This document shows, piece by piece, positions 20,151 through 26,128 of a DNA stretch of 64,000 bases. Both the position numbers and the translations under genes were made by a program. Source of the DNA: the human T2T-CHM13v2.0 reference genome, Homo sapiens. The notes beneath the pieces were generated by a model that ran no database searches, was not told the origin of the DNA, and was given only the letters and a program-made list of their open reading frames with translations. The stretch lies in the NCBI RefSeq assembly GCF_009914755.1, contig NC_060927.1, one strand, 5' to 3'. Numbering within the stretch: the stretch's first letter is position 1; each line of letters begins with the position of its first letter.

Positions 20151-20259
20151 ATAACCTAGGTGATGAGTAGGTAGGTGCAGCAAACTACCATGGCACGTGT
20201 TTACCTAATTACAAACCTGCATATGTACCCCAGAACTTAAATAAACAAATAAACAAATT
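20151..20259 (+). mobile_element. Short L1PA-type 3' end within the L1PB tail
   Basis: ggtgcagcaaactaccatggcacgtgtttacct...acaaacctgc...atgtaccccagaacttaaataaa. Confidence 0.8.
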
Positions 20260-21349
20260 AATTAATTTATAACTAAAGTATAGTGACTAAAAGACAAAAA
20301 CCTATTAAAAATAATAATAACTGGGGAGATCTGGCAAGATGGCGGAATAGGAACAGCTGTGGTCTGCAACTCCCAGTGAGACAAACGCAGAAGGCGGGTG
20401 ATTTCTGCATTTCCAAATGAGTGGTGCCTGGAACCCCAGTGAGAGAGAACCATTCACTCACTTGGAAAGGGGGCTGAAGCCAGGGAGCCAAGTAGTCTCG
20501 CTCAGCTGGTCCCACTCCCATGGAGCCCAGCAAGCTAAGAACCACTGGCTTGAAATTCTCACTGCCAGCACAGCAGTCTGAAGTCTACTGGGGATGATTG
20601 AGCTTGGTAAGGGGAGGGGCATCCACCATTACTGAGGCTTGAGTAGGCGGTTTTCCCCTGACAGTGCTAAGGAGACCAGGAAGCTCAGACTGGGCAGAAT
20701 TCAACACAGCACAGCAAAGTGGCTGTGGCCAGACTGCCTCTCTAGATTCCTCTTCACTGGCAGGGCAGTTCTGAAAGAAAGGCAGCAGCCTCAGTCAGGG
20801 GCTTATAGATAAAACTCCCATCTCCCTGAGACAGAGCACCAGGGGGAAAGGACGGCTGTGGGTGCCGCTTCAGTGGACTTAAATGTTCCTGCCTGCCAGC
20901 TCTGAAGACAGCAGTGGATCCTGACAAGAAGGGTTTTCCCAGCACAGTGATCAAGCTCTGCTAAGAGACAGACTGCCTCCTCTAGTGGGTCCTGGACCCC
21001 CATGCCTCCTGACGGGGAGAGACCTCCCAACACAGGTTGACAGACACTTCCCACAGGAGAGGTCTGGCTGGCATCAGGTTGGTGCCCCTCTGGGATAAAG
21101 CATCCAGAGGAAGGAGGAGGCAGCAATCTTTGCTGTTCTGCAGCCTCTGATGGTGATACCCAGGCAAACAGGGTCTGGAGTGGACCTCCAGCAAACTGCA
21201 GCAGACCTGCAGAAGAGGAGCCTGACTGTTAGAAGAAAAACTAACAAACAAAAAGCAATAACATCAACATCAGCAAAAAGTACACCCACATAAAAACCCC
21301 ATCCATAGGTCATCAGCCTCAAAGATCAAAGGTAGATAAATCCATGAAG

Positions 21350-22053
21350 ATGAGGAAAAACCAGTACAAAAATGCTGAAAATTACAAAAACCAGAATGCC
21401 TCTTCCCCTTCAAATGATCACAACTCCTCTCCTGCAAGGGAACAAAACTGGAATGAAGAGGAATGAGCAAAGCCTCCAAGAAATATGGGGCTATGTGAAA
21501 AGACAAAACCTGTGATGGATTGGGGTCCCTGAAAGTGATTGAGAGAATGGAACCAAGTTGGAAAACACAATTCAGGATGGTATCCAAGAGGACTTCCCCA
21601 GCATAGCAAGACAGGCCAACATTCAAATTCAGGAAATACAGAGAGCACCACTAAGAAACTCCTCGAGAAGAGCAACCTCAAGACACATAATTGTCAGATT
21701 CTCCAAGGTTGAAATGAAGTAAAAAATGTTAAGGCCAGCCAGAGAGAAAGGTCAGGTTACCTACAAAGGGAAGCCCATCAGACTTACAGTGGATCTCTCT
21801 GCAGAAACCCTACAGCTAAAAGAGAGTGGGGGCCAATATTCAACATTCTTAAAGAAAAGAATTTTCAACCCAGAATTTCATATCCAGTCCAGCTAAGCTT
21901 CAGAAGTGAAAGAGAAATAAAATTCTTTACAGACAAGCAAATGCTGAGGGATTTTGTGACCACCATGTCTGCCTTACAAGAGCTCTGAAGGAAGCACTAA
22001 ATATGGAAAGGAACAACCAGTATCAGCCACTGCAAAAACACATCAAAATATAA
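21350..22053 (+). pseudogene. L1PA ORF1 remnant with internal deletion
   Basis: MRKNQ start, junction at about 21452, then NEQSLQEIW-type sequence with stops. Confidence 0.85.
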
Positions 22054-22116
22054 AGAACAACGATACTATGAAGAAACTGCATCAACTAATGTTCAAAATA
22101 ACCAGCTAGCATCATG

Positions 22117-25909
<3,793 letters not shown>

Positions 25910-26128
25910 ACAATAAGAACACATGGACACCGGGAGGGGAACATCACACACCAGGGCCTGTCAGGGGGTTGGGGGAAAAGGGAGGGAGAGCATTAGGACA
26001 AATACTGAATGCATGAGGGGCTTAAAACCTAAATGATGGGTTGATAGGTGCAGCAAACCACCATGGCACATGTAAAACCTGCACTTTCAGCACATGTATC
26101 CCAGAATTTAAAGTAAAATTTAAAAAAA

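What the first reader, a model, noticed from the sequence alone, without database searches (positions are those of the whole stretch)
20400..20445. L1PA7-like element looks like a cDNA of a spliced L1 RNA using an acceptor outside the described set
Seen: ...gcatttccaaatgag|tggtgcctggaacccc... (junction 20421/20422), about 99 nt from the element's 5' end. Established: L1 has a 5'UTR splice donor at about +97/98 (tgag|GTacc), used in spliced integrated retrotransposed elements (SpIREs) described for younger L1PA families with acceptors near 622, 790 and 976. From my recall of the L1PA7/8 consensus, the right side tggcgcctggaac is preceded by ttttttttcataccccAG, a textbook acceptor. The missing ~0.3 kb would then be exactly GT...AG. 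Inference: a fossil of an older, subfamily-specific intra-5'UTR splice isoform that kept both ORFs but lost promoter sequence. It may define an unrecognised SpIRE class.
Basis: partly seen in the sequence, partly recalled or inferred. Interest (0 to 1): 0.8.

Follow-up and report, generated by a model that had tools for sequence, protein, structure and literature searches.

The report
Fossil spliced L1 copy, unlisted acceptor
This old L1 retrotransposon is a DNA copy of an L1 RNA that had an intron of about 315 bases spliced out of its leader, and fourteen other human loci carry the same junction, which a 2018 catalogue of such elements does not list.

Summary
An L1 begins at window 20323, and 99 nt later ...CCAAATGAG joins TGGTGCCTGGAAC (20421/20422).

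Intron-retaining relatives carry a median of 318 extra nt there (most 303-366). The segment starts GT in 31 of 37 copies. It ends in a T-rich tract plus CAG in 37 of 37.

Fifteen loci in T2T-CHM13 share the exact junction, against 1,701 hits for the unspliced acceptor context at the same tolerance, so under 1%. Their 5' flanks are unrelated, and three have unambiguous target-site duplications.

On a tree the spliced copies fall in at least two L1 lineages, and a single origin is rejected (AU p 1e-38). No marker is private to spliced copies.

So this is recurrent RNA splicing from the known +97/98 donor followed by retrotransposition: a SpIRE with a different acceptor. The acceptor is absent from 11 of 11 evaluable younger L1PA copies. 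That explains why probes based on the young element L1.3 could not find it.

Larson et al. 2018 list classes 97/622, 97/790, 97/976 and 97/853. Their supplements hold none of the three junction spellings I searched.

This is a new variant of a known kind, of moderate interest. I could not verify the subfamily name (L1PA7 or L1PA8), and the window copy's own target-site duplication is ambiguous.

The parts
20323..20421 (+). Exon 1 of the spliced L1 RNA: the first 99 nt of the 5'UTR, ending ...CCAAATGAG on the exon side of the known L1 +97/98 splice donor.
   Evidence: sequence; relatives continue with GT after CTGAG.
20420..20423 (+). Splice junction AG|TG. A median of 318 nt present in intron-retaining relatives is missing here.
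   Evidence: All 15 junction loci show the same join with no added or lost bases.
20422..21349 (+). Exon 2: the remainder of the 5'UTR, starting TGGTGCCTGGAAC, up to the ORF1 start-codon position at about 21350.
   Evidence: Alignments.
21350..26128 (+). Decayed ORF1, ORF2 and 3'UTR, ending in a short A-run (26122-26128). Together with the parts above, the whole element spans 20323-26128.
   Evidence: 3' end sequence; longest open frame on this strand 173 aa; collinear with the other 14 spliced copies.
21450..21453 (+). Private deletion of about 318 nt inside ORF1, relative to all 14 other spliced copies. It is not GT/AG and sits at short GA/AATGA microhomology.
   Evidence: of 40 scored places, only the window matches across this junction.

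Best explanation

Proposed sequence of events:
1. A full-length L1 of L1PA7/8 age was transcribed from its own 5' end.
2. The spliceosome removed an intron of about 315 nt inside the 5'UTR. It used the conserved L1 donor (CTGAG|GTACC, +97/98) and a lineage-specific acceptor (T-tract, CATACCCCAG|TGGYRCC).
3. The spliced RNA was copied into the genome by L1's own target-primed reverse transcription.

The same event recurred in at least two L1 lineages and left 15 copies in this genome, under 1% of copies that keep the acceptor.

What is shown: the exact GT...AG boundaries, the recurrence at independent loci, more than one origin, and minority status within each lineage. What is inferred: that the spliceosome did it (no RNA data), and that the copies lost promoter strength and were mostly dead ends, by analogy with the SpIREs assayed by Larson 2018.
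For: - Junction and 5' start.
- GT after CTGAG in 31 of 37 and 8 of 10 intron-retaining copies; CAG after a tract that is 71-73% pyrimidine in 37 of 37 and 7 of 10; median intron 318 and 325 nt.
- 15 junction loci: one search gave 16 hits and 0 in the control, one of them a false hit that is an unspliced acceptor variant. Searches agree.
- Unrelated 5' flanks in all 13 copies aligned.
- Target-site duplications are unambiguous in 3 (L035, L041, L044) and probable in 3 (L031, L032, L034) of 13 examined. Most ends are A-rich.
- Tree of 48 rows by 1,783 columns: 4 spliced copies sit in a 99%-supported clade with 12 full-length copies, and 11 sit elsewhere. Well-supported branches force at least 3 changes of state.
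- The AU test rejects one clade of all 15 (p 1.1e-38).
- The four markers shared by 7 clustered spliced copies are each also found in 3-4 full-length copies, so none is spliced-only.
- Spliced copies are a minority in their own sub-lineage: 2 of 28 exact hits of an ORF1 marker, 5 of 100 listed hits of the 5'-start motif, and 0 of 10 newly fetched copies with that start.
Against: - There is no RNA evidence for this junction. Neither splice-site strength nor the branch point could be scored, and several AGs lie just upstream of the T-tract.
- The window copy's own target-site duplication is ambiguous, because it inserted into the A/T-rich tail of another L1.
- Spliced copies are unevenly spread. 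Eleven of 15 are in the minority 'AACCCC' type, against about 10-14 of 100 sampled unspliced copies (Fisher p 5e-6). Seven cluster in one sub-lineage. Some could therefore be secondary copies of a spliced element rather than separate splicing events.
- Orthologous loci in other primates were not available.
Confidence: 0.87

Rival explanations
1. Splicing happened once or only a few times, and a spliced element then acted as a source. On this reading the window copy is a daughter of a spliced master, for example one driven by residual or upstream promoter activity, and not the product of its own splicing event.
For: - Seven spliced copies, the window included, share four markers and sit together in a weakly supported group (87% SH-aLRT) with 4 full-length copies.
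- Spliced copies are enriched about 17-fold in the 'AACCCC' type.
- The label is clustered on the tree: only 12 of 500 shuffles need as few changes.
- Passages of a 2025 preprint (10.1101/2025.02.02.635956) describe a 97/622-type SpIRE that regained mobility through a host gene promoter.
Against: - One clade of all 15 is rejected (p 1e-38). One clade of the 11 'AACCCC'-type copies is borderline (p 0.03), but that group was chosen after the tree was seen.
- Every marker of the cluster of seven is also carried by full-length copies.
- Spliced copies are only 2 of 28 and 5 of 100 within that sub-lineage.
Confidence: 0.1
2. A DNA-level deletion arose after insertion, or reverse transcriptase switched template between the two short AG-containing repeats (CTGAG / CCCAG), without any splicing.
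For: - The boundaries share a 2-nt AG microhomology.
- The same element carries a second, clearly non-splice deletion at microhomology in ORF1, so such events do happen.
Against: - Fifteen independent loci carry the identical breakpoints with no variation.
- The breakpoints coincide with a donor already shown experimentally to be used in L1 (Larson 2018, sections 7 and 16) and with a T-tract plus CAG.
- The ORF1 deletion junction, by contrast, is unique: 1 of 40 scored places.
Confidence: 0.02
3. The short form is ancestral, and the ~315 nt were gained later by the full-length lineages.
For: None beyond the bare presence/absence pattern.
Against: - Spliced copies nest inside two separate lineages that both carry the segment, so the same precise gain would have had to occur twice.
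- The first ~220 nt of the segment align with the 5'UTR of younger L1PA copies, so the segment is old, shared L1 sequence.
Confidence: 0.01

Closest known systems
SpIRE97/622 (Larson et al. 2018, PLoS Biol, PMC5860796; sections 7 and 16, passages and held supplements read)
   Same: The same donor, at the end of the first ~97-99 nt of the 5'UTR. An intra-5'UTR intron, with the ORF1/ORF2 architecture retained. Full-length 5' start, A-tail and target-site duplications. A small minority of copies: the paper gives about 1.8% of full-length L1PA1-6, against under 1% here relative to acceptor-retaining copies.
   Different: A different acceptor, about 315 nt downstream, where 97/622 removes about 525 nt. 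The host lineage is older: the paper reports 97/622 in L1PA1-L1PA6 and 'none in older (L1PA7-L1PA17...)'. The acceptor lies in a stretch that 11 of 11 evaluable younger copies lack. Three spellings of the junction are absent from the paper's supplements.
SpIRE97/853 and SpIRE97/790 (same paper, section 16)
   Same: They are examples of the principle that structural changes in the 5'UTR create or remove acceptors, so that SpIRE classes are specific to subfamilies. The present class fits that principle.
   Different: Those acceptors lie near the 3' end of the 5'UTR and depend on the 129-bp ZNF93-site segment. This acceptor lies in the 5' half and depends on a different segment. Splicing has not been shown experimentally here.
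Spliced genomic L1s of Belancio et al. 2006/2008 (97/790, 97/976). Known to me only through Larson 2018's account; the papers themselves were not held.
   Same: Retrotransposed copies of L1 RNAs spliced from the +97 donor.
   Different: 97/976 removes the ORF1 start. The present class is purely intra-5'UTR and occurs in older elements.

Membership tests
SpIRE (spliced integrated retrotransposed element) | The upstream breakpoint is the L1 5'UTR splice donor (G98U99 in L1.3 numbering). | tested here: met
   The element's nt 99 ends ...TGAG. Relatives read CTGAG|GT in 31 of 37 and 8 of 10.
SpIRE (spliced integrated retrotransposed element) | The downstream breakpoint is an AG acceptor inside L1, so the missing piece is GT...AG. 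| tested here: met
   T-tract plus CATACCCCAG directly before TGGYRCC in 37 of 37 (20 of them chosen through the acceptor pattern) and 7 of 10 unbiased copies.
SpIRE (spliced integrated retrotransposed element) | Independent genomic copies share the junction. | tested here: met
   15 loci. Unrelated 5' flanks in the 13 copies aligned.
SpIRE (spliced integrated retrotransposed element) | Retrotransposition hallmarks: target-site duplication and a 3' A-tail. | tested here: inconclusive
   Window copy: a short A-run at 26122-26128, but only a weak flank match (13 columns, 2 mismatches, A/T-rich). Class as a whole: 3 unambiguous and 3 probable duplications among 13 examined.
SpIRE (spliced integrated retrotransposed element) | The spliced RNA is detectable, and promoter activity of the spliced 5'UTR is reduced. 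| not testable with these tools
   No RNA data and no reporter assay were available. Both points are inferred by analogy with Larson 2018.
Listed SpIRE classes (97/622, 97/790, 97/853, 97/976) | The junction sequence equals one of the four listed junctions. | tested here: not met
   Exon 2 here starts TGGYRCCTGGAAC. Three spellings of this junction occur 0 times in the held supplements, where the 97/622 junction string occurs 100 times. 'L1PA7' and 'L1PA8' occur 0 times there.
   No repeat library or RepeatMasker was available. Two 5'UTR types were distinguished, 'AACCCC' and 'AAYGCC', but they could not be named. End branches have a median of 0.095 substitutions per site.

The most novel reading that the evidence does not exclude
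The conserved +97 donor produced a succession of lineage-specific SpIRE classes through L1PA history, and at least two of them are absent from the 2018 catalogue: this one (15 copies) and a GAG|CAAACGGCACACC class (21 copies).

The ~180-column stretch that younger L1PA 5'UTRs lack removed this acceptor. The cost of self-splicing, and not only escape from KRAB zinc-finger repressors, may therefore have shaped how the 5'UTR was remodelled.

The roughly 17-fold excess of spliced copies in one lineage would then mark a lineage that was splicing-prone or tolerant of spliced sources.
Probability: 0.2. Interest if true: 0.7.

Novelty: new variant of a known kind. Interest (0 to 1): 0.45.

Why it matters
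SpIREs are used as a record of how often L1 RNA is spliced and of how 5'UTR changes alter that. The published catalogue was built with probes based on the young element L1.3, and it reports no 97/622 copies older than L1PA6.

This class shows that the same donor was already producing retrotransposed spliced copies in L1PA7/8-age elements, through an acceptor that younger families no longer have. It extends the record back in time, by a rough estimate from branch lengths that I did not calibrate.

It also adds loci that annotation currently treats as full-length old L1s. And it suggests that a systematic, subfamily-aware junction scan would find more classes; one further candidate turned up here by accident.

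Tried and rejected
- One search was mis-aimed. I took the wrong part of locus L002, so it sampled exon 2 only and said nothing about the junction. One search repeated it correctly.
- Loci L065-L071 were fetched in the hope that they were younger families. They turned out to be the same old type with GTACCTGG after the donor. Five of 7 kept the intron and acceptor; 2 diverge after about 150 nt.
A smaller request for 10 loci of 1.2 kb was granted, so the full-length sample of the window's sub-lineage is small.
- Belancio 2006/2008 and Khan 2006 were not held. What I say about them rests on Larson 2018's text or on recall.
- The second deletion, in ORF1, was tested as a possible second splice and rejected. 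Its boundaries are not GT/AG and its junction is unique.
- Four partial rows (F_L045, F_L055, F_L027, F_L020) were left out of the tree, giving 48 of 52 rows.
- No splice-site scoring matrix was available, and a branch point could not be assigned by eye.
- Literature searches and passages of five further papers gave no description of this junction.

Full report
**Observation.** One search shows an L1 5' end at window 20323 (GGGGAGATCTGGCAAGATGG...). After 99 nt...TTTCCAAATGAG joins TGGTGCCTGGAACCCC at 20421/20422. The element runs to a short A-run at 26122-26128. It is heavily decayed: the longest open frame on its strand is 173 aa.

**What is missing.** The window's own genome (T2T-CHM13) could be searched.
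- A 399-nt query across the junction (40 of 3,226 candidates scored) matched 14 loci contiguously, the window included. The other 26 scored places matched from about query 99 onward, and 13 further pieces covered the exon-1 part about 0.3 kb upstream in the same loci.
- In those intron-retaining copies the extra segment begins GTACC directly after CTGAG. It ends with a T-rich tract and CATACCCCAG directly before TGGYRCCTGGAAC.
- On one common alignment, GT is present in 31 of 37 copies and AG in 37 of 37, with a median length of 318 nt. Twenty of these 37 had been picked with a pattern that contains the acceptor, so their AG count is biased.
- In 10 further copies chosen only by their 5' start, GT is present in 8 and AG in 7, with a median length of 325 nt. 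The three failures are rearranged, truncated or point-mutated copies.
- The 20 nt before the AG are 71-73% pyrimidine.

**Recurrence.**
- A 110-nt junction probe gave 14 of 40 scored places spanning the junction.
- A fixed 30-mer at up to 3 mismatches gave 10 hits and 0 in the reversed control.
- A degenerate 30-mer that allows for CpG decay gave 16 hits and 0 in the control. One of them, C1:108553913, is an unspliced acceptor variant.
- The total is 15 loci.
- The unspliced acceptor context gave 599 hits with the fixed pattern and 1,701 with the degenerate one. Spliced copies are therefore 0.9-1.6% of acceptor-bearing copies.
- All 13 copies aligned have the same join, with no inserted or lost bases, and unrelated 5' flanks. 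The two loci found later show the same join.
- Of 13 elements whose 3' ends lay in the fetched DNA, three have unambiguous target-site duplications next to both ends: L035, L041 (12 of 12) and L044 (15 of 15). Three are probable (L031, L032, L034). Seven are unclear, the window copy among them, because it landed in the A/T-rich tail of another L1.

**One origin or many.**
- I built a tree of the 1.75 kb downstream of the junction for 15 spliced and 33 intron-retaining copies (48 rows, 4 partial rows dropped).
- Four spliced copies fall in a 99%-supported clade with 12 intron-retaining copies (type 'AAYGCC'). The other 11 fall in the remainder (type 'AACCCC').
- Well-supported branches force at least 3 changes of the label. 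The AU test rejects a single clade of all 15 (p 1.1e-38).
- For the 11 alone the test is borderline (p 0.03), and that group was named after the tree was seen.
- Seven spliced copies, the window among them, share four markers. Each marker is also present in 3-4 intron-retaining copies, and no column is private to spliced copies.
- Within that sub-lineage spliced copies are a minority: 2 of 28 exact hits of an ORF1 marker, 5 of the 100 listed hits (120 in all) of the 5'-start motif, and 0 of 10 freshly fetched copies with that start.
- This excludes a subfamily that naturally lacks the segment, and it excludes ancestral absence.
- The distribution is still uneven. Eleven of 15 spliced copies are 'AACCCC' type, against 10-14 of 100 sampled unspliced copies (Fisher p 5e-6). 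Either a splicing-prone lineage or limited secondary copying from a spliced element remains possible. I give that rival about 0.1.

**Why the acceptor was not catalogued.**
- Twelve copies of younger L1PA families were sampled from 2,333 exact hits of the GTACCGGG donor motif.
- In 11 of the 11 that could be evaluated, about 180 alignment columns are absent. Those columns hold the last ~95 nt of the intron, with the T-tract and CAG, and the first ~85 nt of exon 2.
- The twelfth copy has a large unrelated deletion.
- The acceptor therefore does not exist in L1.3-like elements, and junction probes written in L1.3 coordinates cannot find this class.

**Comparison with what is in print.**
- Larson et al. 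2018 (PMC5860796; sections 7 and 16 and further passages read) define SpIREs and list 97/622, 97/790, 97/976 and 97/853. They state that 97/622 is found in L1PA1-L1PA6 'but none in older' subfamilies.
- Their held supplementary files contain 0 occurrences of 'L1PA7' or 'L1PA8'.
- They also contain 0 occurrences of three spellings of this junction, while the 97/622 junction string occurs 100 times. Long sequence runs in those files are cut, but the junction lies within the first ~100 nt of each listed element.
- Four full-text searches and passages of five further papers gave no description of this junction.
- Belancio 2006/2008 and Khan 2006 could not be read. A mention there cannot be excluded.

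**Mechanism and limits.**
- Shown: exact GT...AG boundaries at a donor already proven to be used in L1; recurrence at independent insertions; more than one origin; minority status.
- Inferred: that the spliceosome did it, since there are no RNA data; and that the copies have weakened promoters and were mostly dead ends, by analogy with the assayed SpIREs.
- I could not score the splice sites or assign a branch point. I could not inspect orthologous loci.

**Verdict.** This is a further class of a known phenomenon, in older elements and with a lineage-specific acceptor: a new variant of a known kind, of moderate interest.

Noticed in passing
window 21450-21453: The window's L1 lacks about 318 nt of ORF1 (coiled-coil region) that all 14 other spliced copies retain. 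The boundaries are not GT/AG and sit at short GA/AATGA microhomology. The junction is unique in the genome: 1 of 40 scored places.
   Followed up: yes
genome places listed (e.g. G000:C2:186802091-186802124): A second junction from the same donor, CCAACTGAG|CAAACGGCACACC, occurs at 21 places (control 0). Two spellings of it are absent from Larson 2018's held supplements. A matching TTAG|CAAACGG acceptor is visible in 1 of 11 sampled younger copies (L075). It is possibly another uncatalogued SpIRE class. Flanks, target-site duplications and GT/AG status were not checked.
   Followed up: partly
loci L072-L083 against L015, L046, L049, L053, L058, L064: Younger L1PA 5'UTRs lack about 180 alignment columns that are present in the L1PA7/8-age type. 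Those columns hold the T-tract, the CAG acceptor and the start of exon 2. Whether this was a loss or a gain was not established, because no older outgroup was examined.
   Followed up: partly
genome-wide: Spliced copies are about 17-fold enriched in the rarer 'AACCCC' 5'UTR type over the commoner 'AAYGCC/AACACC' type (Fisher p 5e-6). No difference at the splice sites explains this. If anything, the commoner type has the more consensus-like base at donor position +6.
   Followed up: partly
window 20200-20321: The 3' end of another L1 (...CCTGCATATGTACCCCAGAACTTAAATAAA...) and its degraded A/T-rich tail lie directly upstream. The spliced element inserted into or beside that tail, which is why its target-site duplication cannot be read.
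   Followed up: partly
G000:C4:59179812-59179845; compare window 21130-21150: One copy joins the same donor to CCTCTGCTGGTGG. In the window that sequence follows TTGCTGTTCTGCAG at about 21143/21144, a strong acceptor near the 3' end of the 5'UTR. It may correspond to the published 97/853 class. This was not checked.
   Followed up: no
locus L073 (G000:C1:30286861-30287681): A young L1 copy with a large internal 5'UTR deletion. The deletion starts about 23 nt after the donor, not at it, so it is not a +97 splice product.
   Followed up: no
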